Assembly: GCA_044222185.1 (NCBI GenBank)
Contig: JBGANV010000004.1
Span: 416,001-480,000, forward strand
Length of the DNA: 64,000 bases
DNA from: Planctomycetota bacterium
Lineage (GTDB): Bacteria; Planctomycetota; GCA-002687715; CAIWVZ01
Reading direction: 5' to 3'
The position numbers and the translations under genes were made by a program. Shown here in pieces: positions 33,920 through 51,706 of the stretch (positions within the stretch are counted from its first letter, which is position 1; every line of letters starts with the position of its first letter). The notes under the pieces were generated by a model. The model did no database searches. It worked only from the letters and a program-made list of their open reading frames with translations, and had not been told where the DNA came from.

Positions 33920-33943
33920 GCCCTCACCAAACTGGATCCATTT

Positions 33944-35944
<2,001 letters not shown>

Positions 35945-36177
35945 CCGGCGGTCGAACGCGGCCGTCGGGGCCGGTGCACGCCGTCCACATCGCCGATCGC
36001 ACTCGGAGGTCGCGTTTTCCTCCTCCAAGAGCATGAGGCCCGCTCATGCGCACGCGGCGTCGTCAAGATGCCGCGGCTGGCACGTCGACAGTCTCAGGTG
36101 GGACCGGCACGGTAGACGCCGCGCCGGGTTGGAGCGGAACTCGCTCGAACCGGAAGTCCCGTGGAGGCGGAGGGATC

Positions 36178-37634: not shown

Positions 37635-40262
37635 ATGCTTCGCATCCCAAGGCTGATCTCGGAACAATTCGTGCGCAGCCGGCTCGCCCGGCGGGTCTTC
37701 GGTCTCGTCGTCGCCTGCGCGCTCGTTCCGCTCGCCCTGTTCGCCGTCGTGACGCAGTTGCAGGTGGGCGACGAGATCCGGGCACGTGCCGAGGCGCTCG
37801 TCCGGCACGAAGCCAAGATGTCCGGCGTCATCTTCTACGAGCGCTTGATCGTCCTCCTCTCCGACATGCGGACGCTCGCCAGCGATCTGAGGACGCGCGG
37901 CGGCGTCGACGCGGCCAGTCTCTCGCAGGAGTTGAGCGAGCTGTGGCGCGCGCGCGTCACATCGCTCGGGGTTGGGAGTTCGGACGGGTACTCCCGCGCA
38001 TTCATCGGAGCCAGGTTCTCGTTGCCGGAGTTCGACGCCGCGCAGCGCCAGCATCTGGCCCGCGGACCCGAGTTGCTCGTGTTGCGACCGGGGAACGTGA
38101 CGAATCCCCTCCAGCTCGTGATGACCTTCGACGATGCAAGGAGGGGCCGGTGCTACCTCGTCGCGGAGCCGAGCCCCGCATTCATCTGGAACCCGGACGG
38201 ATGGTTCACGCCGGACAGCGCGGTCGCCGTCATGTCGCCGTCTGGCGCCGGGCTGTTCACCTCGGTCGACGACCCGCCGCCGACGACCGTGATGGCGCAG
38301 GCGATCGAGAAGGATCCGTCCCAGGGAGCGCTGGCGTTCGGGGACGGTGACCGCGCCGAAGTCGGTGCCTACCGGACGTTGTTCCTCGAGCCCCACCTCG
38401 GGACGAATCTCCTCATCGTCCAGCATCGGCCAGTGCGTGACATCGAGGCGCCACTGTCGTCGTTCCGCTTCTGGTTCATCCAGGTAGCGACGCTGGCACT
38501 GCTCGGTGTCGCATTCGCGAGTTCCAAGATGATCCGCAGGATCCTCGCGCCGGTCGATCAGCTGCTCGCCGCGACGCAGCGAGTGGCACAGAAGGACTTC
38601 GAGTCCCGCGTGGCGATCACGTCACGGGACGAGCTCGGCGACCTGGGTCGGTCGTTCAACGAGATGACGGCGTCGCTCGCGCGCCATGAGAACGTCATGA
38701 CGGCGGTCAACGACATCGGCAGCACGCTCGGACGCACGCGCGACCCGGCGTCGATGATCGAGCAGATCGTCGGTGCCGGCGCGACGCTGTTCAACGCTGA
38801 TGGTGCCGCGGTCTACCTCAATGGAAGCGACGGGGTGCTCGGCCTTGCGCGCATGCGCATCGCGTCCCTCGACCTCACCATCGCCGGCAACTCGCCGGAG
38901 GCCGAGCGTCTCGAAACGGGCGCGTGTTCGCGCGTGCTTCACTCGATCGTCAGCGTCGAAGACGTGTACCGCCAGGATCCAGTGGCGTTCGAGCCGCAGC
39001 GCAAGCTCGACGAGGTCCTCGGCTACCACACGCGTTCGTTGCTCAACGTGCCCATGCGGGATCACGAAGGCGAACTGATCGGCGTCCTCCGCCTGTTCAA
39101 CGCCCGGAACCCCGAGACCGGCGAGGTCGTCACGTTCTCCGGGGAGGCCCTCCAACTCGCGGAGTCGCTCGCGGCACAGGCGGCCATCGCCGTGACGAAC
39201 AACAAGCTCGTCGCGGAGTTCAAGAACCTGTTCGACTCGCTGATTCAACTGCTCGCGGTCGCCATCGACGAGAAGTCGCCCTACACGGGCGGACACTGCA
39301 GGCGCGTTCCCGAAATCACCATGCTGATCGCGGATGCCGTCAGCCGTACGGCCACCGGCCCGTTTCGCGAGGTGTCGTTCTCGCCCGACGAGCTGTACGA
39401 GCTCAAGGTGGCCGCGCTGCTTCACGACTGCGGCAAGGTCGCGACCCCCGTCCACGTCGTCGACAAGGCGACTAAGCTCGAGACGATTCACGACCGGATC
39501 GAACTCGTGGACACGCGCTTCGAGGTCGTGCGGCGGGATCTCGAGCTTCGCGCCCTGGGCGAGGTGCGGCGGGAGTCCAGAAGCGGCGAGTCGGGCCGTG
39601 CCCCGAGCGCGCGACACGAGGAGGCCATCCGTCAGCTCGAGAGCGACCGCGCGTTCCTCCGCAAGGCGAACATCGGTTCGGAGTTCATGACGGCCGAGCA
39701 TCGGGAACGCGTTCGCGACATCTCACGCCGCTATCGGTGGCGCAACGTCGCGGGCGAGGAGGTCGATTTCCTCACGGCGGACGAGATCGAGAACCTCACC
39801 ATCCCCAAGGGCACGCTCAACCAGACGGAACGCGAGATCATCAATCTCCACGTCACGTCGACGATCCGCATGCTCCAGGCGCTGCCCTACCCGCGTGCGC
39901 TGCGGCGCGTGCCCGAGATCGCGGGCGCGCACCACGAGCGCATGGACGGCAAGGGGTATCCGCACGGATTGCGGCGCGACGACATCTCCCTTCAAGGCCG
40001 GATTCTCGGCCTCGCCGACATCTTCGAGGCGCTGACGGCCAAGGATCGCCCCTACAAGCCGGGCAAGAAGCTCAGCGAAGTCATGACGATCATGGGGCAC
40101 ATGGCGAACGAGGGGCACGTCGATCGGGACCTGTTCCGCCTGTTCGTCGAACAGCGCGTCTACCTGGATTACGCGCGGAGCATGCTCGATCCCGAGCAGG
40201 TCGACGCCGTGGACGTCGCGCGGATACCGAGCCTCGAGCAGCCCGAGTTCGCGTTCTCCTGA
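37635..40262 (+). CDS. Membrane HAMP-GAF-HD-GYP cyclic dinucleotide phosphodiesterase
   Basis: Two TMs, HAMP DELGDLGRSFNEM, GAF GYHTRSLLNVPM, LLHDCGK, HHERMDGKGYP. Confidence 0.93.
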   Translation: MLRIPRLISEQFVRSRLARRVFGLVVACALVPLALFAVVTQLQVGDEIRARAEALVRHEAKMSGVIFYERLIVLLSDMRTLASDLRTRGGVDAASLSQELSELWRARVTSLGVGSSDGYSRAFIGARFSLPEFDAAQRQHLARGPELLVLRPGNVTNPLQLVMTFDDARRGRCYLVAEPSPAFIWNPDGWFTPDSAVAVMSPSGAGLFTSVDDPPPTTVMAQAIEKDPSQGALAFGDGDRAEVGAYRTLFLEPHLGTNLLIVQHRPVRDIEAPLSSFRFWFIQVATLALLGVAFASSKMIRRILAPVDQLLAATQRVAQKDFESRVAITSRDELGDLGRSFNEMTASLARHENVMTAVNDIGSTLGRTRDPASMIEQIVGAGATLFNADGAAVYLNGSDGVLGLARMRIASLDLTIAGNSPEAERLETGACSRVLHSIVSVEDVYRQDPVAFEPQRKLDEVLGYHTRSLLNVPMRDHEGELIGVLRLFNARNPETGEVVTFSGEALQLAESLAAQAAIAVTNNKLVAEFKNLFDSLIQLLAVAIDEKSPYTGGHCRRVPEITMLIADAVSRTATGPFREVSFSPDELYELKVAALLHDCGKVATPVHVVDKATKLETIHDRIELVDTRFEVVRRDLELRALGEVRRESRSGESGRAPSARHEEAIRQLESDRAFLRKANIGSEFMTAEHRERVRDISRRYRWRNVAGEEVDFLTADEIENLTIPKGTLNQTEREIINLHVTSTIRMLQALPYPRALRRVPEIAGAHHERMDGKGYPHGLRRDDISLQGRILGLADIFEALTAKDRPYKPGKKLSEVMTIMGHMANEGHVDRDLFRLFVEQRVYLDYARSMLDPEQVDAVDVARIPSLEQPEFAFS

Positions 40263-40383: not shown

Positions 40384-40575
40384 ATGGAGGTTCGATTCGA
40401 TTGCGTGTTCGAGGGGAAGAGGATCTTCCAGGTCGTCCATTCCCAGAGTGACGCGGCGCTGTTCACCGGTACCGCAGCGCAGTGCAAGCGATTCCTCGAG
40501 ATCCATCACGAGAAGGCTGATCGGGCGAGCGGGGTGAGGCGACCCGGGACATCCGATCTCTCGACGGAAGGTTGA
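40384..40575 (+). CDS. Small hypothetical protein (63 aa)
   Basis: GGGGAG RBS before ATG; protein-like composition (MEVRFDCVFEGKRIFQVV..). Confidence 0.5.
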   Translation: MEVRFDCVFEGKRIFQVVHSQSDAALFTGTAAQCKRFLEIHHEKADRASGVRRPGTSDLSTEG

Positions 40576-40841
40576 CGAGGCAGTGCGGCGGTGCGGGCTC
40601 CGGCTGGGGCGCGCCCTCCGACAAAAGAGCCGGCGAAGTTTGTTGCGCCGCCGAAGCGGCCACTGTAGTCTCGCGCCCCGTTGCTCCGGCCCGCCGCGGG
40701 CCGCTGCGTTTGAAGAGGGATGGACCTGGGGTTCGCATCGCCGCGTTGTGGCGACCGAAATGGCGTGGCATCGCTACGTGCGGGTTTCTCGTACGGACTG
40801 GCCAAACCAGGGCTTGTCGCATTCAACCGGAGTCGATGGGA

Positions 40842-42833
40842 ATGGCTCAGCCCGTTGCGCGCCGTGCGTTCGATCGCGTGCTGGTGATCATGTTCGAGAA
40901 CCAGTATCGCGGCTACGTCCTCGCCAATGCCTACATGCGCCAGTTGGCGAAGCGCGGGATCCAGCTCGGCAACTCGTTCGGGGTGATGCACCCCTCGCAG
41001 ACGAACTACATCGCGTCGATCGCGGGCGCGCTCTGCAACGTGACGAACGACGAAGTCCCGAAGCTGCTCACGGAGAAGACGCTTGCGGACCTCGTGCACG
41101 AGGCTCCGGGACGCCTAAGGTGGAAGGCCTACATGGACAGCTACGTCCCGGAGGCCACGCCCTGGACGCCGACCTTCACGCCGCGCGACGCACCTCCGTA
41201 CTACGTCAAGCACAACCCGTTTGCCTCGTTCGCGTCGGTCGTGCGCAACGAGGCGATGTGGCGATGCATCGACAACGAAGCCGGGTTCTTCGCCGACGTG
41301 CTGAACGGAACGCTGCCCGAGTTCTCCTGGTTCTCGCCGAACATCTGGAACGATGGCCACTGGCTCGACGGCACCACCGAAGAGTCCGTCCCTCGGGCGC
41401 CGGCCCTCGTCGACCAGGCCGCTCGGTGGCTCGAACGGTTCTTCAACCGGCTGCGGTTTCCCGGCGCCGACTCCCACCTTCCACCGGGGACCCTCGTCGT
41501 CGTGACGTTCGACGAGGCCGATTTCGAGGCCGACGATCTCCCAGAGCAGGCGTCGGCCTACGACGGCCCGAATCAGATCTACACCGTGCTGCTCGGTGAT
41601 CGCATCCGCCCCGGTTTCGAAGAGGAGGGCTTCAATCACTACAGCATGCTTCGGACGATCGAGATCAACTTCGGTCTGGGGCACCTCGGCCGCAACGACG
41701 CGGGGGCGAACTGGTTTCAGTTCCTCTGGGGGCGCCGTTTTCGATGGGGCCCGAGTCGGGAAACCCCGATCCACGGCGGTGGTGGTGTCTGCGCCGCAGG
41801 GCTCGGAGCGGCGCTCTTCGTCGCTCATGTGGGGGCTGATGGGGTCGTCCGCGTGAGAACGTATGCGGATGGGGCCTGGTCGGCCGCGGAGGACGTCCCG
41901 GTCGATGGGCGCGGTGGCGTCGCCATGGCGAGTACGTTTGAGCAGGTCGTGCTCGTCGCGTGTTCGGCCGGTGGAGCCGTTCATGCGACGACCTGGGATC
42001 CGCAGCATGGTTGGTCTGCACCGTCGGCGCGGCTGGACGGGCGGCGGATCACTGGCGTCGCCGCAGCCTCGTTCGACGGCGAACGGCGGATCATGCTGGC
42101 GATGAAGGACGATGCCGGGGGCATCGAGGCTCGCACGTGGCGGGGAGGGTCCTGGGGCCCGGCGGCCCCTGTCGGAGCCGTGCGATCCGAGGGCGCGATG
42201 ACGCTTGGCGCCTTGGGCGCGTCGCTCTACCTGATCGTCTCCGTCCCCGGCGAGAAGACCCTTCAAGTCGTGTCGTACAACTCGGCGGCGTTCAACGTTG
42301 TCACGGTCGCGAAGAACCCATACGGCGGCCCACAAGACGACACGACGGTCGATGAGTGGTCACCGTGCGCGTTTCCCGTGGCGCACTTCTCTTCGTGGCC
42401 GCAGCGGAACGAGTCGCGCGCGCCAACGACGCGAGCCTATGAAGCGGGCGGTCCTCTGGCGACCGCCACGCTCGACGGCGTCCTGCATCTGGTCCATCCG
42501 GGGGCGGCGAATTCGCTTCTACTCACGGAGACGTTCTCGATCGCCGGTTTGATGACGCCCTCGCAACCGGTCTCCTACAAGAGCCGGAGCGCCGCGAATT
42601 CGAGCAACGGGTTCGGAACCCTGGCCGAGGCCGGCTGGAGCAAGCAGGCAGCCCTGTTCGGGTCGCGGTGCGGGGCACGAGGTGCACTTGCCCTCGGGCG
42701 TGCCGATGGGCAGATCGTCCTCCTCTCGCGGGCCGAGGCTGGTTCCGCGGTGGAAATCCGCGTCGGACGGTACGTCGACGACGCGCAGCCCGAGCGTGTG
42801 TACGACGGGCATCGATCGAAGGAATGCCAATGA
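40842..42833 (+). CDS. Phosphoesterase (acid phosphatase/phospholipase C family) + beta-propeller-like C-terminus
   Basis: VIMFEN, HPSQTNY, YVKHNPF, NDGH, VTFDE, NHYSMLRTIE; Trp-ending blade-like repeats; no signal peptide seen. Confidence 0.88.
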   Translation: MAQPVARRAFDRVLVIMFENQYRGYVLANAYMRQLAKRGIQLGNSFGVMHPSQTNYIASIAGALCNVTNDEVPKLLTEKTLADLVHEAPGRLRWKAYMDSYVPEATPWTPTFTPRDAPPYYVKHNPFASFASVVRNEAMWRCIDNEAGFFADVLNGTLPEFSWFSPNIWNDGHWLDGTTEESVPRAPALVDQAARWLERFFNRLRFPGADSHLPPGTLVVVTFDEADFEADDLPEQASAYDGPNQIYTVLLGDRIRPGFEEEGFNHYSMLRTIEINFGLGHLGRNDAGANWFQFLWGRRFRWGPSRETPIHGGGGVCAAGLGAALFVAHVGADGVVRVRTYADGAWSAAEDVPVDGRGGVAMASTFEQVVLVACSAGGAVHATTWDPQHGWSAPSARLDGRRITGVAAASFDGERRIMLAMKDDAGGIEARTWRGGSWGPAAPVGAVRSEGAMTLGALGASLYLIVSVPGEKTLQVVSYNSAAFNVVTVAKNPYGGPQDDTTVDEWSPCAFPVAHFSSWPQRNESRAPTTRAYEAGGPLATATLDGVLHLVHPGAANSLLLTETFSIAGLMTPSQPVSYKSRSAANSSNGFGTLAEAGWSKQAALFGSRCGARGALALGRADGQIVLLSRAEAGSAVEIRVGRYVDDAQPERVYDGHRSKECQ

Positions 42834-45800
42834 GCACACCAAAGCAAGGCCGAGCGGCTCGAGATCCGTTGGAGTCGGCGTCGAGGACCGCGGCAGATCT
42901 GTCCACGGAACGGGCCCGGATGACGCACGATGCGGTCTGGCGCCTGGTGCAGCGTGGGCTGGTCTATCCGTCGCCGAATGCGATCTTCATCACGTTCTTC
43001 CGCAGTCGCAAGGCGTCGCCGCTGACGAAGGGGACCCTCGGCCAGGTGGTTCGTGGAACCCGCGCGCGGATCCATGCGGACTTCGGCAAGGCTCACACGA
43101 CGGCGATCCTGGGAGTCGGTTTCGATCTCTGGCGCGAGCTCTCCGCTCGGGACGGGACGTCGGTTCCCCTCGGGATGCAGCTCCACTCCGATGGTGAGAA
43201 AGCGGGCGGGGAGTCGTCCGACGGCGTGTTCGCGCGGCCGGGGACGGTTTTCGTCGACTCTGGCGCCGACCTGTGGTTCCACGTCAAGAGCGACAACCCC
43301 AAGCATTGCCAGGGCCTTCTCGAGTACTTGCGTCACGTGCTCGAGGTCGAGCTCGCGTGCATGGACCCGGCGCGGACCGTGTGGCAGGCGGCGGCGACCA
43401 AGTCCAACGCACCGGACCATCGGGGTGGCAAGGTGTTGGGCAGCCGGTTCTCCGAGAACCTCAACAACGCGACCGATCCCATCACGATCCAGCAGCAGAC
43501 GATCGTCGGGTTCGAGGATCCGACGCACATCGGTGGATCTTTCGTGTTGGCCCAGCGATTCGTGATCAACTGGGGGCAGATCCTCGCGATGGCTCCGCAG
43601 CACGTCGAAGACCTGGTGGGGCGCTCGACGGACGACCGGCTCGTCCCGTCCCACGATGACCGGAGCCACATCAAACGCGCTCGGGCGTTCGACGAGCACG
43701 GGAACGCCATGTCGGTCCTGCGGTTGGGCCTGCCATATGGTCGCTCGTCCGCGATCGAGAGCGACGACCTGCTCGCGAAGGGCGCGAGCCGTCGCGACGA
43801 GGAAGGTCTGTACTTCGCCGGGTACGCCAAGAGCGCGGCGGCGCTCGAGCGGATCATGGAGCAGCAGATCGGCGACGTCCCAGGGTTCATGTCCGACCGC
43901 TTGCTGGGGCACGTCCGCGCCAACCTCGGTGGCTTCTACTACGTCCCGAGCCTGCCCGATCTGGGGATCGAACCCGAGTCCGCGTCGTCGTGGCGGCGGT
44001 TCCCTGGGGTCGACTGGTCACGTCTGGATCGCCACTTCGACCAGACGTCGCCCAACGGCTACATGCACTACAACCACAAGGAGTACTTGTTCCGGATGGC
44101 GACGATGACGGCCGAGGAGCGAGCGACGTTCCTCCCGCCATCGCACCGCGTGCTCACTCTGCTCGCGGGCGTGTTCTCGCGCTGGCAGGACAACTGGTAC
44201 TTCGATCGCTCCCAGAAGGAGTTCTCCCACCTCCGCGTCTACCTCGAGCGCGAAGACGGACGCGAGGTGGCCGAGAAGGTCATGAGCCTCTCGATCGCCG
44301 AGCGCGGCGGCTGGGCGACCAAGGTCCTGCTGGGGCGCGTCCTCGTCAGCGACGAGTACGGGTTCCGGGGACGACGAAAGGATGGTCGCGGGAACCTCGT
44401 CAACGGTGCGGACACCTACCGGATCCACCCCAGCGAAATCCTCGTGGGTTCCATGCCGAATCTGGGCCTCGGCCAGGGAAAGCACCTCATCGATTTCGCG
44501 CGAGAGAGCGAACGGCTCGAGAACTTCTTCGACAACCTGAGCTATGCCTCGGGCGTCGGCCACATCGTCCCGCACTATGCGACGGCGCTGCGCGTCGGGC
44601 TCGGCCGGCTGACGGCCGACGTCGCCGCGCGGCGCGATCGGGCAAAGTCCGAGAGCAAGCGGCAGTTCTACGCCGGCGCGGTCCTCGCGCTGGAGGGCGT
44701 CGCCGAGCATTGTCGTGCGTTTGCACGGCTCGCCGCCAAGATGGCGGACGGCATGGGCCCGGGGCAGTCTGCGGAGCGGAGCAACCTTCAGGAGATCCGC
44801 GACCGGATGAACCGGATCGCCGAGACGGCACCCGCGACGTTCGTCGAAGGTGCGCAGCTCCTGTTCACCCTGCACTCGTGCCTCCATCACGCGGGCGAAC
44901 CGACCGCGATCGGGCGGATCGATCAACTCCTGCATCCGCTCTACGAGGCGGACGTCCGGGCCGGGCGCATAGACGAGAGCCTTGCGCAGGAAATCATCGA
45001 CTGCTTCTGGGTCAAGGTCGGCGAGAAGGCGCAGCTCAACCGGCAGTTCGTCGAGGATCACCAGGTCTTCGGGAACATGGCCATGGGAGGGGCGTCGGGG
45101 AACTACCCCCAGGGCTCCTCGCTGAATCAGTGGATCCAACAGGTGACCGTGGGCGGGACGATCGCCGACGACACGCCCGGCGCCGGGACACCGGCCTACA
45201 ACGACATCACCTGTCTGTGCCTCCGCGCCGCGCGACGGCTGCCGCTGAATGCACCGTGCCTTTCGCTCCGGATGCGGCCGGACATGCCGCAGGAACTGCT
45301 CCGCGAGGCCGCGCTCGCCATCCTCTCGGGTGGTGCCCACCCGGTCCTCGTTTCCGATGCGAAGGTCATTCCGGGGTTGGCGCAAAGCGGCGACGACGTC
45401 GGCCGCGGCACGCACGAAACGGCGTCGACGCCAGTCGCGGAGAAGGCCGCGGGGCTCTGGAACAGCAGGGTCCGCTTGCGAGATGCGCGCGATTACGCGT
45501 GTGACGGCTGTTACGAGCCGCAACTCACCGGCACGAGTTGGTTCACGCTGGGCGGAATGCCGTCCACGCAGCCGCTCGAGGCGGCCCTCAACCAGGGAAA
45601 GACGTGGCAGAGTGCGGGCCCCGTGTGGTTCCGTGGGCAGAAGGTGTCCTTCACCTCGGAGCCGGCGCGCGACATCCCGAGCTTCGAGCGCTTGCTCGAC
45701 CTCTACATCGAGCACCTGAAGTGGATGTACGCCAAGCAGGTCGACGGGCAGCTCGGACTCTTCGGCAGGATGAACTCCGTCTGCCCCGCTCCGCTGTTGT

Positions 45801-46750
45801 CGGTGTTCATCGAAGACTGCATCGACAAGGGGCTCGACTACTATGAGGGCGGCGCCCGCTACAACGTCGTGGCTCCGTGCTTCAGCGGGCTCTCGACGCT
45901 GATCGACTCGCTTTGGGCGATCCGCGCCATGGTGTTCGACGAGCGAACGGCGACGACGTCGCTCCCCGAACTGGTGACGGCGCTGCTCTGCAACTGGGGT
46001 GAGAACATGGCGGAGCCGTTCATCAGCACGCTCGAGGGGTCGGCGCGCATCGAAGCCCGTGCCGAGCGATTCCGCCAGCTCCGCGCCGTCGCCATGGCCC
46101 AGCCGAAGTTCGGGCGCGGGAATGCAGACGTCGATCGGTTCGGCGACGCAATCGTCGGCCGCATCGCTGCGGCAGCCGTCGACGTCTTCGTGAATCCGGC
46201 CGAGCGGACCGCGGCGAAGATGCTCGGTTTCGCGCAGCGCCTCGGGACCAAGGAGATGCCGTTCGGCGGGTTCCAAATCCAACCGGGCGTGGGTTCGTTC
46301 GAGAACTACCTCGACTGGGGGAACATGTCCGGCGCCTCGGCGGACGGGCGTCGCAGCGGCGATCCGTTCGCCTCCGACATCAGCCCGGCGCCGGGCTACG
46401 GCGATCGCGCGATCGACTCGCGCGAGGCTCCGATCATCCGTGTGATGGAGGGGTACTCGGGCCCCGGCATCGAGGCGATGTGGGACGGCGCTCCTGTCGA
46501 TCTGAACATCCGAGAGGACTTCCCGCTCGAATCGCTGGTCGCAGCGCTCGGCGCCTTCGCGCAAGGACGCGGGTCGTCGTTGATGACGATCACCTGCGCG
46601 GATGCGGCGACGATGGCGCAGGCGGCGCGAGACCCGGAGAAGTACGATTTGCTCCGAGTCCGCATGGGCGGTTGGACCGAGTTCTTCGTCGTGATGTTCC
46701 CGGCGCATCAGGCCCAGCACCAACGTCGCCCCATCAGCACCGTGGAGTGA
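42830..46750 (+). CDS. Dyp-type peroxidase / glycyl-radical enzyme (PFL superfamily) fusion
   Basis: DyP: DLWFHVKS, GGSFVLAQRF, SHIKRA, LRLGLPYG, GLYFAGY, GGFYYVPS; GRE: GRIDQLLHP, DGCYEP, PKFG, ASADGR, RVRMGGWTEFF. Confidence 0.9.
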   Translation: MSTPKQGRAARDPLESASRTAADLSTERARMTHDAVWRLVQRGLVYPSPNAIFITFFRSRKASPLTKGTLGQVVRGTRARIHADFGKAHTTAILGVGFDLWRELSARDGTSVPLGMQLHSDGEKAGGESSDGVFARPGTVFVDSGADLWFHVKSDNPKHCQGLLEYLRHVLEVELACMDPARTVWQAAATKSNAPDHRGGKVLGSRFSENLNNATDPITIQQQTIVGFEDPTHIGGSFVLAQRFVINWGQILAMAPQHVEDLVGRSTDDRLVPSHDDRSHIKRARAFDEHGNAMSVLRLGLPYGRSSAIESDDLLAKGASRRDEEGLYFAGYAKSAAALERIMEQQIGDVPGFMSDRLLGHVRANLGGFYYVPSLPDLGIEPESASSWRRFPGVDWSRLDRHFDQTSPNGYMHYNHKEYLFRMATMTAEERATFLPPSHRVLTLLAGVFSRWQDNWYFDRSQKEFSHLRVYLEREDGREVAEKVMSLSIAERGGWATKVLLGRVLVSDEYGFRGRRKDGRGNLVNGADTYRIHPSEILVGSMPNLGLGQGKHLIDFARESERLENFFDNLSYASGVGHIVPHYATALRVGLGRLTADVAARRDRAKSESKRQFYAGAVLALEGVAEHCRAFARLAAKMADGMGPGQSAERSNLQEIRDRMNRIAETAPATFVEGAQLLFTLHSCLHHAGEPTAIGRIDQLLHPLYEADVRAGRIDESLAQEIIDCFWVKVGEKAQLNRQFVEDHQVFGNMAMGGASGNYPQGSSLNQWIQQVTVGGTIADDTPGAGTPAYNDITCLCLRAARRLPLNAPCLSLRMRPDMPQELLREAALAILSGGAHPVLVSDAKVIPGLAQSGDDVGRGTHETASTPVAEKAAGLWNSRVRLRDARDYACDGCYEPQLTGTSWFTLGGMPSTQPLEAALNQGKTWQSAGPVWFRGQKVSFTSEPARDIPSFERLLDLYIEHLKWMYAKQVDGQLGLFGRMNSVCPAPLLSVFIEDCIDKGLDYYEGGARYNVVAPCFSGLSTLIDSLWAIRAMVFDERTATTSLPELVTALLCNWGENMAEPFISTLEGSARIEARAERFRQLRAVAMAQPKFGRGNADVDRFGDAIVGRIAAAAVDVFVNPAERTAAKMLGFAQRLGTKEMPFGGFQIQPGVGSFENYLDWGNMSGASADGRRSGDPFASDISPAPGYGDRAIDSREAPIIRVMEGYSGPGIEAMWDGAPVDLNIREDFPLESLVAALGAFAQGRGSSLMTITCADAATMAQAARDPEKYDLLRVRMGGWTEFFVVMFPAHQAQHQRRPISTVE

Positions 46751-46753
46751 GCG

Positions 46754-48154
46754 ATGACCAACAAGAACGCAGTCAGCACGTACCTCGTGGAATCAATTCC
46801 CATCGGTCTCGAGGATCTCCGTGGGACGATGGGAGTGCAGTACACCGAGGACGTCCTCGTGCGGCTGGTCCGCGGCGCGAAAGAGTCCATCGACCTCACT
46901 GCGATGTACTGGAACCTCCTGCCGGATCCGGACGGTGACGACGAGAAGGGGTTCACGGCGCAGCAATTCGACGCCATGGGCGCCGCGACCGGCCGCAACC
47001 TCTTCGAGGCCCTTCGCGACGCGGCGCGCCGCAAGGTGCGGATCCGGATCGTCGAAAGCCCAGGATTCTCGGGGAAGAGGCAGGAGTCGACCGACCTCAA
47101 GGAGGCCTTCCCAGACTGCGTGACCGTCCGCCAGATATCGATGAACGACTGGTATGGCGGCGGGATCATGCATCAGAAGATCTGGGTGTTCGATGCCTGC
47201 CACGTCTACGTCGGCTCCGCCAATATGGACTGGAAGTCCATCATGCAGGTCAAGGAGATGGGCGTCGTCGTCGAGAATTTGCCCCCGTTCGCGCAGGACG
47301 TGACCCGGTACTTCGAAGGGTGGTGGGCGTTCTGCGCGCTGAAGCCGGCCACGGCCGTCGCGTTCGATCCGAGGGCGGGTGTGGAGCGCCTGGTGCCGCC
47401 CTGGTCGGCGCTGCTCCACGAAGCCCAGCGAAAGCCATCGCCCTTCGACGACGATCGTTTTCGCTCGGACGCGAACCGCTCGAAGCCCCTGTCGGTCCCG
47501 TTGGATGGTCAGACCGCCGGCTTCTTCTTGACTGGGTCGCCCGACGAAGTGCGTGGTCGAGGCAGGACGCTCGATGCGGACGGATTGGTCTACACGATCG
47601 ACGATGCGAAGAAGTCGATCTGCGTGAGCGTGATGGACTTCGGGCCCATGAGCCTGTACTCGCGGGCGCCACTGGGGCCCGGCGCCACGCGGGGGATTCC
47701 GACGGACACTCCCGTTTGGTGGCCGCAGCTGTTCGACGCCCTCCTCTCGGCGGTCCTGACGAGGAACGTCCACGTCCGCCTCCTGGTCAGCAAGTGGGCT
47801 CACACCTCTCCACTGATCGAGCCGTTTCTCGCGGCCTTGCAGCACGCGGCGGACGCCGGCCGTGTGGATCCTCGAATGTCGAGCGGCCAGCTCGAGATCA
47901 AGCTGTTCGTCATCCCGGGCTGGGACCAGACCGCAGGGACTCACCGGCGCTACCCGGGCCACAGCCGCGTCAACCACACGAAGTACATCGTGACGGACCG
48001 GCGCATCAACATCGGGACGTCGAACATGACGTGGGACTACTTTGCGGCAACCGCCGGCGGCAGCGTGAACACGGACCACGTCGGCCTCGTGTGCAGCTTG
48101 CAGGCCGTGTTCGACCGCGACTGGGGATCGAGCTACGCGTATCGGTTGGCCTGA
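46754..48154 (+). CDS. Phospholipase D superfamily, PLD3/PLD4/poxvirus K4L-like
   Basis: LVESIP; two HKD motifs HQKIWVFD..GSANMDW and HTKYIVTD..GTSN. Confidence 0.9.
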   Translation: MTNKNAVSTYLVESIPIGLEDLRGTMGVQYTEDVLVRLVRGAKESIDLTAMYWNLLPDPDGDDEKGFTAQQFDAMGAATGRNLFEALRDAARRKVRIRIVESPGFSGKRQESTDLKEAFPDCVTVRQISMNDWYGGGIMHQKIWVFDACHVYVGSANMDWKSIMQVKEMGVVVENLPPFAQDVTRYFEGWWAFCALKPATAVAFDPRAGVERLVPPWSALLHEAQRKPSPFDDDRFRSDANRSKPLSVPLDGQTAGFFLTGSPDEVRGRGRTLDADGLVYTIDDAKKSICVSVMDFGPMSLYSRAPLGPGATRGIPTDTPVWWPQLFDALLSAVLTRNVHVRLLVSKWAHTSPLIEPFLAALQHAADAGRVDPRMSSGQLEIKLFVIPGWDQTAGTHRRYPGHSRVNHTKYIVTDRRINIGTSNMTWDYFAATAGGSVNTDHVGLVCSLQAVFDRDWGSSYAYRLA

Positions 48155-48160
48155 ACGCGT

Positions 48161-48180
48161 CGCCGCACCATGGTGCGGCG
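48161..48180. repeat. Perfect 20-bp palindrome
   Basis: CGCCGCACCA|TGGTGCGGCG just after the PLD stop. Confidence 0.85.
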
Positions 48181-48221
48181 TCGGAACGGCGGTCGAACCG
48201 CTGGCACAGTGAGGATGAATC

Positions 48222-50225
48222 ATGGCGAAACGAACTCAGACGCCTGGAAAGCGCAGCGGGAAGGCGAGGAGTAGGACGGCCGCCGCCACGGGCGCGCCCA
48301 GGCCTCGCTCGCAATCGGGCCACAAGCCTTGGCTGGACGTTGCCGCGCCGGCGACGCGCGCGCTGCGGATCTACACACAGGACCCGAGTGCCGGGACCTA
48401 CGTCGGCAACCTAAGCACCGTTCACGTGCCGTGGGAGGCGGTGAGGCCCGGGCCCGTCGGCTCCAAGGTCGCCGTCGTCGATTACGACGCGTCGAATCGC
48501 TGCTACTACACCCCGATCGACCTCGATCATCCCTTCGTGCTGGCTCGCGACGGCGTCGACCCCTCCGAGTCGGATCCGCGGTTCCATCAGCAGATGGTCT
48601 ACGCCGTCGCGACGCGGACCATCGAGATGTTCGAGGCCGCGCTGGGGCGGAAGATCCGATGGCGACGTGCGGATCGCTTCTCCGACAAGTCCAACGAGCA
48701 GCAGTGGCACAAGACGGACGACATCGAGGTCCTCCATCTCTACCCCCATGCGATGCAGGAGGCGAACGCCTATTACAGTCCGCAGGCCCACGGCATCCTG
48801 TTTGGATACTTCACGGCGAACACGACGCGGCAAGGGCGCAACCTGCCGGGGCAGCGGGTCTTCACGTGCCTCTCGCACGACATCATCGCCCACGAAGTGA
48901 CGCACGCGATCATCGACGGGATCCGCACGTACTTCACCGAGGCGACGAATCCGGATGTCCTTGCATTCCACGAGGGCATCGCCGATGTCGCGGCGCTGTT
49001 CGCCCATTTCACGCAACGTGATGCCTTGTTCGAGACGATCAGGAAGACGGGCGGACGCTTGTACCAGGCGGACCTGGATGCGGATGCCTGTGGCAGCGAC
49101 CGTTCCGGTCACATGATCGCGGCCCAACGTCGCGAGGTGAATCCGTTGATCCAGCTCGCGCAGCAGTTCGGGGAAGCGCGGGGCACGGGACGCGGGCTTC
49201 GTTCAGCCTTGAGCACGCCGCCGTCGCCGGACGACATCGAAAAAAAGCCGACCGAGCCGCACACGCGAGGCGCCATCCTCGTCGCGGCCGTCTTCGATGC
49301 CTTCTTCTCGGTCTACGCGCGCAAGAGCGCCGACTTGTTCCGCATCTTCCACGCTGGCGGCGGGCGCCCCGACCAGGACGAGGTGCCAGCGCCGCTCGCG
49401 GAGCAACTCGCGCGCACGGCCACGGACCTCTCCCAGCGTTTCTTCCGGCTCTGCGTCCGGGCTCTCGACTACTGTCCGCCGGTCGACATCACGTTCGGCG
49501 ACTACTTGCGCGCCCTGATCACCGTCGGCACCGAGCTTCACCCGGAGGATCCCGATCGCATCCGTGACGCGCTCATGCAGGGCTTCCGGCTGCGCGGGAT
49601 CTTCCCGGAGAGCGCGAGTTTCTTCTCCGAGGACGCGTTGCGGTGGCCCCCCATGTTGCCTGGGATGCTCCCGCCGATCGGAGCACGGACGATCGGCGAT
49701 CCGCAGACCGGACGCAGCCTCGTCACTGGGCTGGTCTTCGGCGGGCCCAACGGCCTCACGCGACGCGAGAAGGACATCAACGGCCGCGTCCTGCGGGCCT
49801 ACATGAAGGAGAACGCCGCGGCGCTGGGCCTCGATCCGAAGTTGCCGGTCTCCGTCCCCTCGTTCCATCCGATGTTTCGGTCGGGGGATGACGGACGGAC
49901 CCGCGCCGAGATGGTGGTCGAGGTCGTGCAGCTGAGACGGGCGCCGTTCGATCCGGCGGTGACCGGGGTTGGGGAGTTCCCATTCCGCGGAGGCGCGACT
50001 GTGATCATTTCGGCACCGGAGGTTGCGCCTGATTCCTCGGGAAGCCTCACGGCGAAGGACCCGGAGATCCGCTTCGTGATCGGGAAACCGATTTCTGGGC
50101 CGGGAGGTGTCCAGCGCGAGTCCGCTCAGCGGCACTTCACGCTGTCCCTGGGCCTCGCGCAGGGGCACTGTGACGATGCCCGGCACTTCCAGGTGAACTT
50201 CGCATTGTTGCATGGAGACGGCTGA
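48222..50225 (+). CDS. Gluzincin metallopeptidase (M4/M36-like)
   Basis: NAYYS, DIIAHEVTHA, third-ligand FHEGIAD, EPH. Confidence 0.85.
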   Translation: MAKRTQTPGKRSGKARSRTAAATGAPRPRSQSGHKPWLDVAAPATRALRIYTQDPSAGTYVGNLSTVHVPWEAVRPGPVGSKVAVVDYDASNRCYYTPIDLDHPFVLARDGVDPSESDPRFHQQMVYAVATRTIEMFEAALGRKIRWRRADRFSDKSNEQQWHKTDDIEVLHLYPHAMQEANAYYSPQAHGILFGYFTANTTRQGRNLPGQRVFTCLSHDIIAHEVTHAIIDGIRTYFTEATNPDVLAFHEGIADVAALFAHFTQRDALFETIRKTGGRLYQADLDADACGSDRSGHMIAAQRREVNPLIQLAQQFGEARGTGRGLRSALSTPPSPDDIEKKPTEPHTRGAILVAAVFDAFFSVYARKSADLFRIFHAGGGRPDQDEVPAPLAEQLARTATDLSQRFFRLCVRALDYCPPVDITFGDYLRALITVGTELHPEDPDRIRDALMQGFRLRGIFPESASFFSEDALRWPPMLPGMLPPIGARTIGDPQTGRSLVTGLVFGGPNGLTRREKDINGRVLRAYMKENAAALGLDPKLPVSVPSFHPMFRSGDDGRTRAEMVVEVVQLRRAPFDPAVTGVGEFPFRGGATVIISAPEVAPDSSGSLTAKDPEIRFVIGKPISGPGGVQRESAQRHFTLSLGLAQGHCDDARHFQVNFALLHGDG

Positions 50226-50227
50226 AC

Positions 50228-51706
50228 ATGGCGACGCGAAAGACCCGTTCCTCTTTGAAGTCGCCGGCCACGAAAAAGCCGGCCTCGTCCCCGCGCGCAC
50301 CGCGCAGGACGGGCGCGAAGGCTGCGGCTCGTGGACCCGGTCGCAAGGTGAGCTCGGCGCGCGGTTCCGTCCGCGTGCGCATGTACCGCGTCGGGTTCGG
50401 CGACTTCTTCCTCTTGACGGTGCCGGGCAACGACGGGCCGGCGCACATCCTTATCGACTGCGGCGTTCACGCCGCGAACATCGGGACGATGGACGCATGC
50501 GTCAAGGACCTCGTGAAGGCTACGGGCAACAAGCTCGCGCTGGTGATCGTCACGCACTACCACGCCGATCACATCTCGGGTTTCGCATCGAACTACGATG
50601 ATTTCGCGAAGTTCGATCACATCGGCGCCGTTTGGATCACCAATCGGCTCGACCCGAGCGACACCGGCAAGTCGAAGTTCCTCGCGCAACTGACGTCCGT
50701 GGCGCAGCAGTTGCAACTGCACCTGGGCGTGAGAGACGACGACGCGGCCGTCGAGGCGCGGTCCAAGGTCGAGAACGCGCTTGGTGTGGCCGCAGGTGGA
50801 GGGTCGAACGCCAAGGCGCTCCAACTCCTGCGGAGCGGCTTCAAATCCAAACCTCCCGTGCACTACTACCAGGGAGGGGACACCCCGTACCTGCCGCCGG
50901 AGCTCGATGGCGCGATCGAGGCCGAGATCCTCGCTCCATCGCCGAAGGACTCCGGTGGCGAGTTTGCTGCGAGCGACAACAAGACGGAGCAATATCTCGC
51001 GGCGGTCGGCGCCGACGGGCTCGAGGATCAGACTCGCGTGCAGCCGTTCGAGAAGGACTGGCCCGCGACGGCCGCGTCCTATCCTCCTGAGGCCTTCGAC
51101 GAGTTCGACTCGGGAATGGTCCGCGGGAGCAAGGCCCGGAACGCGGACGGTGCGCGTGCGATGGAGTCGTTGCTCGAGACGATGCAGCCGGACGTGCTCG
51201 CGGCCACCGCCGACAAGCTCGATGGCACACTGAACAACCAGAGCCTCGTCGTCCTATTCACGTGCCAGGGCAAGAAGCTTCTTTTCGTGGGCGACGCGCA
51301 GTGGGGCAACTGGGCCTACTGGCTCTACGGCAAGGCTGTCACAGGCAAAGACCCGGGAATCACCGACCGCGCGAAGCAGATCCTCGGCTCCATCGATTTC
51401 TACAAGGTGGGGCACCACGGCAGCACGAATGCGACGCCGATCCCGGCCGTCGCGGCCTTGAACAGCAGCTGCGCAGCCATGTGCTCGACGGCAACCGGCG
51501 CCTACGGTGATTCCAAGAAAGGCACGGAGGTCCCGCGCACCGTCCTGATCGAGAGCCTGGAGAAACAGCTGAAGAATCGACTCGTCCGCAGTGACTGGGT
51601 TGCCGCCTCCGGCGTCAAACCCGATCCGGAAGCGCTCGAAGAGATCCGGACGCTTCCCACCGGGTTTTCGACGCCCGGCGACCTGTACATCGACTTCACG
51701 CTCTGA
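50228..51706 (+). CDS. MBL-fold metallo-hydrolase (ComEC/Rec2-like)
   Basis: VGFGDFFLL, LIDCG, THYHADHISG, NNQSLV, LFVGDA, KVGHHGS. Confidence 0.9.
   Translation: MATRKTRSSLKSPATKKPASSPRAPRRTGAKAAARGPGRKVSSARGSVRVRMYRVGFGDFFLLTVPGNDGPAHILIDCGVHAANIGTMDACVKDLVKATGNKLALVIVTHYHADHISGFASNYDDFAKFDHIGAVWITNRLDPSDTGKSKFLAQLTSVAQQLQLHLGVRDDDAAVEARSKVENALGVAAGGGSNAKALQLLRSGFKSKPPVHYYQGGDTPYLPPELDGAIEAEILAPSPKDSGGEFAASDNKTEQYLAAVGADGLEDQTRVQPFEKDWPATAASYPPEAFDEFDSGMVRGSKARNADGARAMESLLETMQPDVLAATADKLDGTLNNQSLVVLFTCQGKKLLFVGDAQWGNWAYWLYGKAVTGKDPGITDRAKQILGSIDFYKVGHHGSTNATPIPAVAALNSSCAAMCSTATGAYGDSKKGTEVPRTVLIESLEKQLKNRLVRSDWVAASGVKPDPEALEEIRTLPTGFSTPGDLYIDFTL

What the first reader, a model, noticed from the sequence alone, without database searches (positions are those of the whole stretch)
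42830..46750. Dyp-type peroxidase fused to a glycyl-radical enzyme, with no radical-SAM activase nearby
Seen: one ~1300-aa ORF. The N-terminal DyP domain keeps the proximal His (SHIKRA, codon 43667) and distal Arg (LRLGLPYG). The C-terminal GRE keeps the Cys loop DGCYEP (Cys at 45509) and Gly loop RVRMGGW (46661-46675). No CxxxCxxC activase ORF is visible in the window. Known: GREs normally need a cognate radical-SAM activase and are cleaved by O2, and CxEP loops typify eliminases such as CutC, HypD and diol dehydratases. Inference: the heme domain may install the Gly/Cys radical using H2O2, or protect it from oxidants, which would give a self-activating or O2-tolerant GRE. I recall such fusions from comparative genomics, including fungi, but know of no biochemical characterisation.
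Basis: partly seen in the sequence, partly recalled or inferred. Interest (0 to 1): 0.92.

Follow-up and report, generated by a model that had tools for sequence, protein, structure and literature searches.

The report
Heme peroxidase fused to glycyl-radical enzyme
This gene joins a heme peroxidase to a complete oxygen-sensitive-type radical enzyme in an aerobic bacterium that has no gene for the usual activating enzyme, which suggests the heme part starts the radical chemistry.

Summary
Window 42830-46750 (+) encodes a 1306-aa protein: a class-P (B-type) DyP heme domain, then a complete eliminase-type glycyl-radical enzyme (GRE). Across 116 family members the proximal His, distal Arg, GRE Cys and Glu are invariant or nearly so. 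The radical Gly is kept in 113 of 116.

The host genome (93.8% complete, aerobic) has no GRE activase. 34 of 43 other carrier genomes also lack one. Where an activase exists, it usually sits beside a separate canonical GRE (8 of 9 genomes).

New here: a sister clade of stand-alone GREs has the same unusual Gly loop (RMGGW). In 22 of 22 informative loci, a separate DyP gene of a different class (EfeB-like) follows it directly. So GRE and DyP were joined twice independently. PLD-like genes are the only recurrent further neighbour.

The architecture is already in print ("DyP-PFL", DyP subclass P2) but uncharacterised. Both papers assume a conventional activase.

Best reading, inferred and about 50% likely: heme plus peroxide installs the protein radical in place of a radical-SAM activase. 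The substrate is unknown and is neither choline nor glycerol. The heme-to-Gly geometry could not be measured.

The parts
42830..46750 (+). DyP-GRE fusion gene, 1306 aa (stop included). The ATG overlaps the stop of the upstream gene (ATGA).
42950..43957 (+). DyP-type heme peroxidase domain (about res 41-376), class P / B-type. Distal Glu209 at 43454-43456, proximal His280 at 43667-43669, distal Arg298 at 43721-43723.
   Evidence: TIGR01413 over cut-off. PDB alignments to TyrA, DypB, YfeX and encapsulin DyPs. Conservation 116/116 for each of the three residues.
43958..44518 (+). Low-confidence linker (about res 376-406), then the family-specific N-terminal part of the GRE fold. It is rich in invariant Trp/Tyr (W396, Y414, Y419, W452, W456, Y457, W495, Y510).
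   Evidence: pLDDT dip at model residues 270-300. Foldseek aligns about 950 columns to whole GRE chains. Aromatic conservation.
44519..46171 (+). PFL-like barrel (res 564-1114). Includes His578 (GVGH), the GEP motif (res 689-691), and the Cys loop DGCYEP with Cys894 (45509-45511) and Glu896 (45515-45517).
46466..46690 (+). Divergent glycyl-radical domain (res 1213-1287). Gly loop RVRMGGW at 46655-46675, putative radical Gly1281 at 46670-46672, followed by near-invariant Trp1282.
   Evidence: Gly_radical HMM below cut-off. Aligned to VRVAGY of solved dehydratases. G1281 113/116, W1282 113/116.
40572..42833 (+). Upstream gene, PLC/acid-phosphatase-family phosphoesterase. The ORF is given from the first TTG; the likely start is near 40836. 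Its stop overlaps the fusion's start. It is the same neighbour in 5 related loci.
   Evidence: Pfam PF04185 E 1e-15
46754..48154 (+). Downstream PLD-like gene with two HKD-type domains, 3 nt after the fusion's stop. Conserved in 5 related loci.
48222..50225 (+). 667-aa gene with no Pfam or NCBIfam family. Conserved in 3 related loci.
50228..51706 (+). MBL-fold gene, 2 nt after the previous stop. Conserved in 3 related loci.

Best explanation
SHOWN. The gene encodes a member of the catalogued but uncharacterised 'DyP-PFL' family (DyP subclass P2). An N-terminal class-P DyP heme domain keeps the proximal His, the distal Arg and an invariant distal Glu. It is joined to a complete GRE of the 1,2-eliminase type, with the Cys-x-Glu loop and a Gly loop of the family-specific form R-x-R-M-G-G-W.

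The family lives mainly in aerobes and in some eukaryotes. It usually occurs in genomes without any GRE activase. It belongs to one clade of GREs that is always partnered with a DyP, either fused or as the next gene.

INFERRED. The DyP heme reacts with H2O2 (or another peroxide) to give a high-valent heme. That oxidising equivalent is passed, probably through conserved Trp/Tyr residues, to the Gly1281/Cys894 pair. A thiyl radical can then start a radical 1,2-elimination on a small hydroxylated substrate without a radical-SAM activase.

The radical may be made on demand rather than stored, which would make the enzyme usable in air.

The substrate is unknown. The recurrent PLD-like and phosphoesterase neighbours suggest it is released from a phosphodiester.
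For: Conservation:
- Both catalytic sets are conserved in 116 sequences: His280 116, Arg298 116, Glu209 116, Cys894 116, Glu896 115, Gly1281 113, Trp1282 113.

Host genome:
- It has 3 heme-copper oxidase genes and no NrdD.
- This is its only PFL-like gene.
- It has no activase. Best scores are TIGR02494 23 bits against a cut-off of 174, and TIGR02493 27.5 against 232. The best activase-like ORF is QueE-like. TIGR04337 scores 28 against 220.

Other carrier genomes:
- Activase-like genes occur in 9 of 43: 7 over the cut-off, plus fragments in G001 and G027.
- In 8 of those 9 a canonical full-length GRE is present, next to the activase where contigs allow.
- The four complete chromosomes (Archangium minus, Cystobacter fuscus, Corallococcus coralloides, Saccharopolyspora spinosa) have none.

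Sister clade of stand-alone GREs:
- It has the same Gly loop.
- A DyP gene follows on the same strand, -4 to +113 nt away, in 22 of 22 loci that have a complete GRE 3' end and at least 60 nt beyond it.
- These DyPs are EfeB-like and show no BLASTP similarity to the fused domain (E 0.34).
- The one examined (L051) has no Tat signal.
- They keep Asp, His and Arg in 19 of 19.

Phylogeny and structure:
- Fused and stand-alone forms make one clade (SH-aLRT 100) apart from 5 canonical GREs of the same genomes.
- AF2 gives a single rigid model, pTM 0.89, with a whole GRE fold, TM 0.75-0.78 to dehydratases and CutC.

Literature and chemistry:
- In the fungus Chaetomium the fused gene was the peroxidase gene most induced by H2O2 and peracetic acid (PMC5041501, passages read).
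- Recalled knowledge, not from a call: DyPs form Tyr/Trp radicals by long-range electron transfer. Class I ribonucleotide reductase feeds a Cys in a GRE-like barrel from a metal site.
Against: - No chemistry was tested, and heme binding itself is only inferred from motifs.
- The distal acid is Glu rather than the canonical Asp. A distant fused clade (L045, L046, L048, L050) aligns His and Gly at the distal Glu and Arg positions. Peroxidase activity may therefore be altered.
- The heme-to-Gly distance and any Trp/Tyr relay could not be measured because coordinates are not given to scripts.
- 9 of 43 carrier genomes do have an activase-like gene. In one (L039/G032) a pflB-pflA pair lies about 6 kb from the fusion. 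In G020 an activase was found without a canonical GRE.
- Most carrier genomes are incomplete MAGs, and the host genome is 93.8% complete.
- An unrecognised kind of activase among the 38 radical-SAM genes of the host cannot be excluded.
- A glycyl radical in an aerobic cytoplasm would be cleaved by O2 unless it is shielded or transient.
Confidence: 0.5

Rival explanations
1. Per-turnover peroxide chemistry. The protein is in effect a peroxidase or peroxygenase whose substrate pocket is the GRE barrel. Each H2O2 makes one Cys/Gly-centred radical that oxidises or cleaves the substrate. Peroxide is then a co-substrate, and no stable glycyl radical and no redox-neutral chain exist.
For: The obligatory DyP partner, the absence of activases and peroxide induction in a fungus (PMC5041501) fit this as well as the best explanation. 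It also avoids the problem of a stored O2-labile radical in aerobes.
Against: The Gly loop, whose only known role is radical storage, is kept in 113 of 116 fused sequences and is invariant in all 41 aligned stand-alone sequences. The Cys-x-Glu pair of redox-neutral eliminases is kept.
Confidence: 0.2
2. Guardian peroxidase, as proposed in PMC9719856. The GRE is activated conventionally by a radical-SAM enzyme. The DyP only removes H2O2 to protect the radical and the activase.
For: 9 of 43 carrier genomes have an activase-like gene. Zamocky et al. report a putative PFL activase in Chaetomium (PMC5041501). The host has 38 radical-SAM matches of unassigned partner.
Against: - No activase was found in the host or in 34 of 43 other carriers, including four complete chromosomes.
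- Where activases are present, a neighbouring canonical GRE explains them in 8 of 9 genomes.
- No radical-SAM family is among the 25 commonest Pfam families of 125 neighbour ORFs.
- A generic scavenger would not need to be fused, or to be the next gene in 22 of 22 loci, and to be recruited twice from different DyP classes.
Confidence: 0.15
3. The GRE part has lost radical chemistry. It serves as a scaffold, a binding module or a non-radical enzyme for the peroxidase.
For: The Gly_radical HMM is below its cut-off. No equivalog GRE model comes near its cut-off. The substrate-binding residues of CutC and glycerol dehydratase are replaced.
Against: Cys894, Glu896 and Gly1280-Gly1281 are nearly invariant across clades down to 34-38% identity. 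Such conservation of exactly the radical residues is hard to explain otherwise.
Confidence: 0.08
4. Assembly artefact or gene-call artefact joining two genes.
For: None found. The window comes from a metagenome-type assembly. The only run that spans the whole gene is its probable source.
Against: - The same architecture occurs in all but one of the 120 listed homologues.
- It occurs in 4 complete chromosomes.
- Short contigs from other studies bridge the domain junction: X4 record 10 across nt 43957 and X5 record 16 across nt 44029.
Confidence: 0.01

Closest known systems
'DyP-PFL' fusion / DyP subclass P2 (Zamocky et al. 2016, PMC5041501; Biochem Biophys Rep 2022, PMC9719856)
   Same: Same architecture (N-terminal DyP, C-terminal PFL-like) and the same broad spread in bacteria and eukaryotes. 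The window's protein is a member.
   Different: Nothing differs in kind. Both papers leave the function open ('elusive', 'unexplored') and assume a PFL activase. The activase census, the split-operon sister clade and the PLD partner were not found in print with my searches.
B12-independent diol/glycerol dehydratases and choline TMA-lyase CutC (GRE 1,2-eliminases with radical-SAM activases)
   Same: Best sequence and fold matches: 5i2a E 2.7e-43, TM 0.75-0.78. The Cys-x-Glu loop, the Gly loop position and the His of GVGH (GDH His164) are shared.
   Different: - No cognate activase.
- Gly loop is RMGGW instead of RVAGY.
- GDH His281-Ser282 is replaced by Glu-Pro, and GDH Asp447 by Thr906.
- CutC Thr502 and Tyr506 are replaced by Phe905 and Gly909.
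- About 20% identity.
- Hosts are aerobes.
- A heme domain is attached.
Class P (B-type) DyPs: TyrA, YfeX, DypB, encapsulin cargo DyPs
   Same: HMM membership, the proximal His and distal Arg motifs, and length of about 300-340 aa.
   Different: The distal Asp of GxxDG is replaced by an invariant Glu in RFSENLNN. The domain is covalently joined to a 900-aa GRE.
Class I ribonucleotide reductase versus class III (recalled, not from a call)
   Same: The idea is the same: one radical barrel with a Cys loop can be fed either by a glycyl radical made by a radical-SAM activase (anaerobic) or by a metal cofactor through a Tyr/Trp relay (aerobic).
   Different: Class I reductases have lost the Gly loop and use a di-metal subunit, not heme. 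No homology of the radical-generating part.
Coproheme decarboxylase (ChdC/HemQ) of the same CDE superfamily; heme-peroxidase fusions such as linoleate diol synthase/PpoA (first is recalled; second is mentioned in PMC5041501)
   Same: H2O2 at a heme makes a protein Tyr radical that abstracts hydrogen from a substrate. A peroxidase-type domain is fused to a second catalytic domain.
   Different: A different second domain and different chemistry. None involves a GRE.

Membership tests
DyP-type peroxidase (TIGR01413 / PF20628) | HMM match over the curated cut-off | tested here: met
   TIGR01413 110.9 bits against a cut-off of 100.5. PF20628 53 bits against 20.
DyP-type peroxidase | Proximal His and distal Arg | tested here: met
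   His280 and Arg298 align to the TyrA motifs. Both are 116/116 conserved.
DyP-type peroxidase | Distal Asp in the GxxDG motif | tested here: not met
   The motif is RFSEN. Glu209 aligns to the Asp of GFVDG in 9obr. Glu is 116/116.
DyP-type peroxidase | Binds heme b and turns over H2O2 | not testable with these tools
   Needs purified protein.
DyP subclass P2 / DyP-PFL fusion | DyP domain and PFL-like domain in one polypeptide | tested here: met
   Definition from PMC9719856 and PMC5041501 (passages read).
Glycyl radical enzyme | PFL-like ten-stranded barrel | tested here: met
   PF02901 E 2e-101. The AF2 model matches whole GRE chains, TMt 0.75-0.78 over about 950 columns.
Glycyl radical enzyme | C-terminal Gly_radical domain (PF01228) with the RVxG motif | tested here: inconclusive
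   The HMM scores 15.1 and 20.3 bits against a cut-off of 22.2. The Gly aligns to the radical Gly of RVAGY in 5i2a and 1r8w. The variant motif is R-x-R-M-G-G-W.
Glycyl radical enzyme | Catalytic Cys on the Cys loop | tested here: met
   Cys894 aligns to the Cys of GCVEP. 116/116.
Glycyl radical enzyme | Cognate radical-SAM activase encoded in the genome, usually adjacent | tested here: not met
   None in the window. None over cut-off in the host genome, which is 93.8% complete. Absent from 34 of 43 other carrier genomes.
Glycyl radical enzyme | Glycyl radical seen by EPR; O2-dependent chain cleavage at the Gly | not testable with these tools
   Experiment needed.
GRE 1,2-eliminases (GDH, PD, CutC, HypD, IslA) | Cys-x-Glu general-base pair | tested here: met
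   GCYEP. Glu896 is 115/116.
Choline TMA-lyase CutC | Equivalog HMM, and substrate residues Thr502 and Tyr506 (residue names from PDB titles) | tested here: not met
   TIGR04394 147.8 bits against a cut-off of 1050. Thr502 and Tyr506 align to Phe905 and Gly909.
B12-independent glycerol / propanediol dehydratase | His164, His281-Ser282 and Asp447 of GDH (numbering counted on the 1r8w alignment; their roles are recalled) | tested here: not met
   His164 is kept as His578. His281-Ser282 align to Glu-Pro, and Asp447 to Thr906. TIGR01774 scores 223.8 against a cut-off of 678.2.

The most novel reading that the evidence does not exclude
A whole clade of glycyl-radical-type enzymes, in aerobic bacteria and some eukaryotes, has swapped the radical-SAM activase for a DyP heme peroxidase. 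The swap happened twice: once by fusion and once as an operon partner. The result is an oxygen-compatible, peroxide-triggered radical enzyme system. With PLD-like and phosphatase-like partners, it processes a compound released from a phosphodiester, such as a lipid head group or a nucleic-acid-derived sugar. It may act as part of a peroxide-stress or defence response.
Probability: 0.4. Interest if true: 0.92.

Novelty: new variant of a known kind. Interest (0 to 1): 0.8.

Why it matters
Every characterised glycyl radical enzyme needs a dedicated radical-SAM activase and strict anoxia. That requirement limits where this chemistry is thought to occur and how it can be used.

A clade that keeps the Gly/Cys machinery, lives in aerobes, ferns, fungi and echinoderms, lacks activases and is always paired with a heme peroxidase would be a second, independent way of starting GRE chemistry. 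It would be analogous to the aerobic versus anaerobic ribonucleotide reductases.

It is directly testable with one recombinant protein, H2O2 and EPR. If true, it would give air-tolerant radical eliminases for biocatalysis. It would also assign a role to a widespread orphan family and to 'unexplored' DyP subclass P2.

Tried and rejected
- Heme-to-Gly distance: the AF2 model is held only as a model id. Scripts see no coordinates, so no distance or aromatic relay could be measured.
- Complex prediction, DyP domain 38-400 plus heme against Gly domain 1165-1306: no verdict (score 0.00, controls not run). This is not evidence either way.
- Defence-island idea. It was prompted by L051 (deaminase, nuclease-like PLD, HNH-AAA) and by weak DrmC/LmuA/Avs1a-type hits in the window's neighbours. 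PADLOC on 125 neighbour ORFs gave only the generic PLD domain (10 members) and a kinase family (2-3 members). The fusion itself hits nothing in PADLOC. The idea is kept only as part of the novel case.
- HAD-phosphatase identity of the 277-aa partner, and of the C-terminal extension on five stand-alone DyPs. Motifs were seen by eye. There is no Pfam, NCBIfam or PDB sequence hit. The AF2 model is poor (pLDDT 61). Foldseek gave nothing at E <= 0.001. VIA-align's best Z was 6.7, with several HAD phosphatases at Z 5-6.4 among unrelated Rossmann-like folds. Weak lead only.
- Family-wide conserved neighbour in the fused family: none among 45 loci except PLD-like genes in 10.
- Split forms of the fused family: the 95 short hits are mostly contig-end or frame-broken fragments. 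This is no evidence of natural split genes.
- Class-level search for the stand-alone GRE: found in 1 of 301 genomes, the query's own.
- ESM Atlas for the 667-aa and 277-aa neighbours: only unnamed clusters. Weak leads were Peptidase_M36/M4 in 11-29% of members, and DUF2608 at score 0.91.
- RNA evidence: no RNA holder listed. Parts of the gene are without cover in runs X4-X6, which says nothing.
- Promoter/terminator scan, tRNA scan and Rfam: nothing.
- Supplementary files of the two papers were not seen. PMC5041501's Table S4 and tree, and PMC9719856's sequence lists, may hold more on distribution.
- Claims of 'not in print' rest on searches of the held library only.

Full report
**1. What is in the window.**

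A single frame is open from 42668 to 46750 on the + strand. The ATG at 42830 overlaps the TGA of the upstream ORF (ATGA) and follows GAAGGA.

Domain matches:
- Pfam finds PFL-like (res 564-1114, E 2e-101) and Dyp_perox_C (res 212-375, E 4e-14).
- NCBIfam's Dyp_perox_fam is over its cut-off (110.9 against 100.5 bits).
- Every GRE equivalog model is far under its cut-off, for example CutC at 147.8 against 1050 and PFL2-3 at 223.8 against 678.2.
- The Pfam Gly_radical model matches the right place (res 1213-1287) but below its cut-off: 15.1 and 20.3 bits against 22.2.

Alignments to solved structures:
- GCYEPQ falls on GCVEPQ, and VRMGGW on VRVAGY, of propanediol and glycerol dehydratase.
- SHIKRA and LRLGLPYG fall on the proximal-His and distal-Arg motifs of TyrA.

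**2. A large, conserved family.**

A search of 5.8 billion proteins gave 523 hits. Of the 120 listed, all but one (a 905-aa entry) carry both domains at 49-74% identity. The hosts include:
- myxobacteria;
- Pseudonocardiaceae;
- cyanobacteria;
- Chloroflexota;
- Hahella;
- a fern (a 186-Mb contig);
- a brittle star (a 64.7-Mb contig).

Forty-four genomic loci were fetched. They include the complete chromosomes of Archangium minus, Cystobacter fuscus, Corallococcus coralloides and Saccharopolyspora spinosa.

Conservation in 116 aligned sequences (window plus 115 hits of 1200-1450 aa):

| Residue | Conserved in |
|---|---|
| His280 | 116 |
| Arg298 | 116 |
| Glu209 | 116 |
| Cys894 | 116 |
| Glu896 | 115 |
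| Gly1280 | 115 |
| Gly1281 | 113 |
| Trp1282 | 113 |

The canonical enzymes aligned have Tyr where this family has Trp1282. Twenty-eight Trp/Tyr positions are at least 90% aromatic, and many lie in res 396-510 between the two Pfam matches.

A distant fused clade at 35-38% identity (L045, L046, L048, L050) keeps His, Cys, Glu and the Gly loop. At the distal Glu and Arg positions it aligns His and Gly.

The fusion is not a misassembly. Besides the many independent assemblies, short contigs from other studies bridge the junction. The one run that spans everything is probably the window's own source.

**3. No activase.**

The host genome (7.08 Mb, 16 contigs, 93.8% complete) has these features:
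- It has 38 Radical_SAM matches, and none of them lies in the window.
- The best score for the GRE-activase model is 23 bits (cut-off 174). For PflA it is 27.5 bits (cut-off 232).
- The most activase-like ORF is QueE-like.
- The AmmeMemoRadiSam model scores 28 bits against 220.
- This gene is the only PFL-like gene.
- There is no NrdD, and there are three heme-copper oxidase genes, so the host is an aerobe.

In the 43 other carrier genomes:
- TIGR02494 is over its cut-off in 7, and TIGR02493 in 4 of those same 7.
- Two more genomes (G001, G027) have strong fragments.
- So 9 of 43 have an activase-like gene and 34 have none.
- In 8 of the 9, a canonical full-length GRE is present, next to the activase where contigs allow.
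- G020 has an activase with no canonical GRE seen.
- In G032 the pflB-pflA pair lies about 6 kb from the fusion.

Many of these genomes are MAGs, so absence is not proven for each. The four complete chromosomes have none. One of the 43 (G014) is an unpublished genome; without it the count is 33 of 42.

Among 125 neighbour ORFs from 41 loci, no radical-SAM family is among the 25 commonest Pfam families.

**4. A split, permuted sister system.**

In locus L051 the family's GRE is a separate 847-aa gene with the Gly loop RVRMGGWTEFY. Five to twenty nucleotides after it comes a separate DyP gene.

That DyP has these properties:
- It is EfeB-like (class I / A-type; 6jbn E 4e-30) with the canonical Asp, His and Arg.
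- It has no twin-arginine signal.
- It shows no BLASTP similarity to the window's DyP domain (E 0.34).

The stand-alone GRE has 305 relatives. All 120 listed carry PFL-like only and are 626-886 aa long. The named hosts are aerobes such as Ruegeria, Ensifer, Blastomonas, Flavobacterium, Pedobacter and Hymenobacter. In the 41-sequence alignment, Cys, Glu and M-G-G-W are invariant.

Thirty-one metagenome loci were fetched. In every one of the 22 loci (L051 included) that have a complete GRE 3' end and at least 60 nt beyond it, a DyP gene follows on the same strand, between -4 and +113 nt away. The ten remaining loci are cut at or inside the GRE or hold only a fragment.

All 19 full-length partner DyPs keep the distal Asp, the proximal His and the distal Arg.

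A tree of 39 sequences (quick IQ-TREE, 835 columns) puts fused, distant-fused and stand-alone forms in one clade (SH-aLRT 100). That clade is separate from five canonical GREs taken from the same genomes. The stand-alone clade has support 99, the fused clade 100, and fused plus distant-fused 87.

So this GRE clade has been coupled to a DyP twice, with different DyP classes and different gene orders. This is the strongest evidence here that the two work together.

**5. Other partners.**

In the window the genes are packed as an operon, with gaps of -4, 3, 67 and 2 nt:
1. a PLC/acid-phosphatase-family phosphoesterase;
2. the fusion;
3. a PLD-like protein;
4. a 667-aa protein with no family;
5. 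an MBL-fold protein.

No signal peptides were seen.

The flanking genes recur only with the closest homologues (70-74% identity). PLC-like and PLD-like genes each recur in 5 loci, and the other two in 3 loci. These loci come from Alphaproteobacteria, Myxococcales, Solirubrobacteraceae and Acidobacteriaceae MAGs.

None of 40 relatives of the host has the fusion: 4 of the same family, 18 of the same order and 18 of the same phylum. Together these results point to horizontal spread of a cassette.

Across the fused family, the only recurrent neighbour is a PLD-like gene, present in 10 of 45 loci and belonging to two subfamilies. PLDc_2 is the top family in the census, with 11 of 125 ORFs.

In the stand-alone family:
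- A 550-690-aa PLD-like gene is present in 19 of 32 loci.
- A 277-aa protein of no known family is present in 10 by tblastn. In L061 it carries a C-terminal glyoxalase/VOC domain.
- Five partner DyPs carry a 230-aa C-terminal extension.

Both the extension and the 277-aa protein show HAD-phosphatase-like motifs by eye. No HMM supports this, and the fold matches are weak.

**6. Substrate.**

The closest solved enzymes are 1,2-eliminases, and the Cys-x-Glu pair is kept. The pocket differs in these ways:
- GDH His164 is kept as His578.
- GDH His281-Ser282 becomes Glu-Pro in a conserved GEP motif.
- GDH Asp447 becomes Thr906.
- CutC Thr502 and Tyr506 become Phe905 and Gly909 within the conserved W-F-T-L-G-G stretch (W904, F905 and G908 invariant; T906 not measured).

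The protein is therefore not a choline lyase and not a glycerol or propanediol dehydratase. A radical elimination on some other hydroxylated compound is the most economical guess. The PLD-like, PLC-like and possibly phosphatase partners suggest a compound freed from a phosphodiester. This step is inference only.

**7. Structure.**

AF2 on residues 107-1306 (the tool's 1200-residue limit; a 71-row alignment) gave mean pLDDT 85.7 and pTM 0.89. There is a dip at the linker, about res 376-406. Foldseek aligns about 950 columns to whole GRE chains, with TM normalised to target of 0.75-0.78 and 5i2g, CutC and GDH at the top. The GRE fold is therefore complete and starts near residue 400.

The high pTM suggests a fixed arrangement of the two domains. 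I could not read the coordinates, so the heme-Gly geometry remains unknown.

**8. How it most likely works.**

Shown:
- an intact heme-peroxidase motif set;
- an intact GRE radical motif set;
- obligatory DyP partnership in the clade;
- general absence of activases;
- aerobic hosts.

Inferred: peroxide at the heme makes an oxidant that is relayed to Gly1281/Cys894, and the thiyl radical then starts catalysis. The analogy is with class I versus class III ribonucleotide reductase, and with H2O2-driven Tyr-radical chemistry in coproheme decarboxylase of the same superfamily. Both analogies are recalled, not tested here.

I put this at about 0.5. The rivals are:

| Rival | Confidence |
|---|---|
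| DyP as a mere guardian, with an unrecognised activase | 0.15 |
| A non-radical role for the GRE part | 0.08 |
| Artefact | 0.01 |

**9. What is known.**

Two papers name the fusion.
- Zamocky et al. 2016 (PMC5041501, passages read) call it DyP-PFL. They say its significance 'remains elusive', and report a putative PFL activase in Chaetomium. They also report the strongest induction among the peroxidase genes by H2O2 and peracetic acid.
- The 2022 DyP phylogeny (PMC9719856, passages read) lists it as unexplored subclass P2. It suggests the DyP protects PFL and its activase from H2O2.

Nine full-text searches found no biochemical study, no activase census and no mention of the split GRE-DyP operon or its PLD partner. 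Subscription journals and supplements were not searchable.

**10. Verdict.**

It is a GRE variant that works with a heme peroxidase instead of a radical-SAM activase.

Interest 0.8. Novelty: new variant of a known kind.

Noticed in passing
L051:767-4712 and L053-L076 (metagenome loci): A sister family of stand-alone ~850-aa GREs has the RMGGW Gly loop. Each is followed by a separate EfeB-like DyP gene without a Tat signal (checked in L051). This holds in 22 of 22 informative loci.
   Followed up: yes
L054:3193-4872, L073:1596-3659, L069:8774-10426, L017:7941-9965, L045:13888-15840 and others: PLD-like genes (PLDc_2; weak likeness to Nuc/DrmC-type HKD domains) recur beside both the fused form (10 of 45 loci) and the split form (19 of 32 loci). 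Their role is unknown.
   Followed up: partly
L051:5589-6419; L061:3573-4973; L055:8778-9476: A 277-aa protein of no known family lies upstream of the stand-alone GRE in 10 loci by tblastn. In L061 it is fused to a glyoxalase/VOC domain. Five partner DyPs carry a ~230-aa C-terminal extension. Both show HAD-like motifs by eye (DxDx[T/N], TAR, DDD) with only weak fold support (Z up to 6.4).
   Followed up: partly
L045, L046, L048, L050 (fused, 35-38% identity): A distant fused clade includes MAGs labelled Scalindua and Desulfobacca. It keeps the proximal His and all GRE motifs. At the distal Glu and Arg positions of the DyP pocket it aligns His and Gly.
   Followed up: partly
window 40572-51706: A five-gene cassette (PLC-like, DyP-GRE, PLD-like, 667-aa unknown, MBL-fold) is shared at 56-72% protein identity with MAGs of different phyla. 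The DyP-GRE gene was not found in 40 relatives of the host, and the other four genes were not searched there. It looks horizontally transferred.
   Followed up: partly
L051:4672-5589, L053:8864-9802, L072:5554-5886; L051:8300-11593: A cytidine/dCMP-deaminase-like gene follows the DyP in 3 stand-alone loci. L051 also has an endonuclease-like ORF and an HNH plus AAA_21/AAA_15 ATPase downstream. This is a defence-island-like setting in that one locus.
   Followed up: partly
L039 / G032:C157:16587-27239: In Chromobacterium alticapitis the fusion lies about 6 kb from a canonical pflB-pflA pair. This is the only carrier seen where an activase is near the fusion.
   Followed up: no
P0080, P0120, P0150, P0176: Homologues sit on chromosome-scale contigs of a fern (186 Mb), a brittle star (64.7 Mb), amphioxus and another fern. 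This suggests true eukaryotic copies rather than contamination.
   Followed up: no
window 37635-40262 (+): An 875-aa HAMP-GAF-HD/HD_5 (HD-GYP-type) signalling protein lies 310 nt upstream of the cassette. It is not conserved beside the fusion in other loci.
   Followed up: no
window 32639-37604 (+): Three genes lie here: a thiolase gene, an aconitase-family gene whose Aconitase_C match (res 96-144) lies N-terminal to the main domain (res 228-649), and a pseudopilin-like gene (N_methyl, T2SSG).
   Followed up: no
G006:C56, G036:C291, G042:C44: Some carrier genomes hold a second, shorter paralogue of the fused type (open frames of about 950-1220 aa).
   Followed up: no
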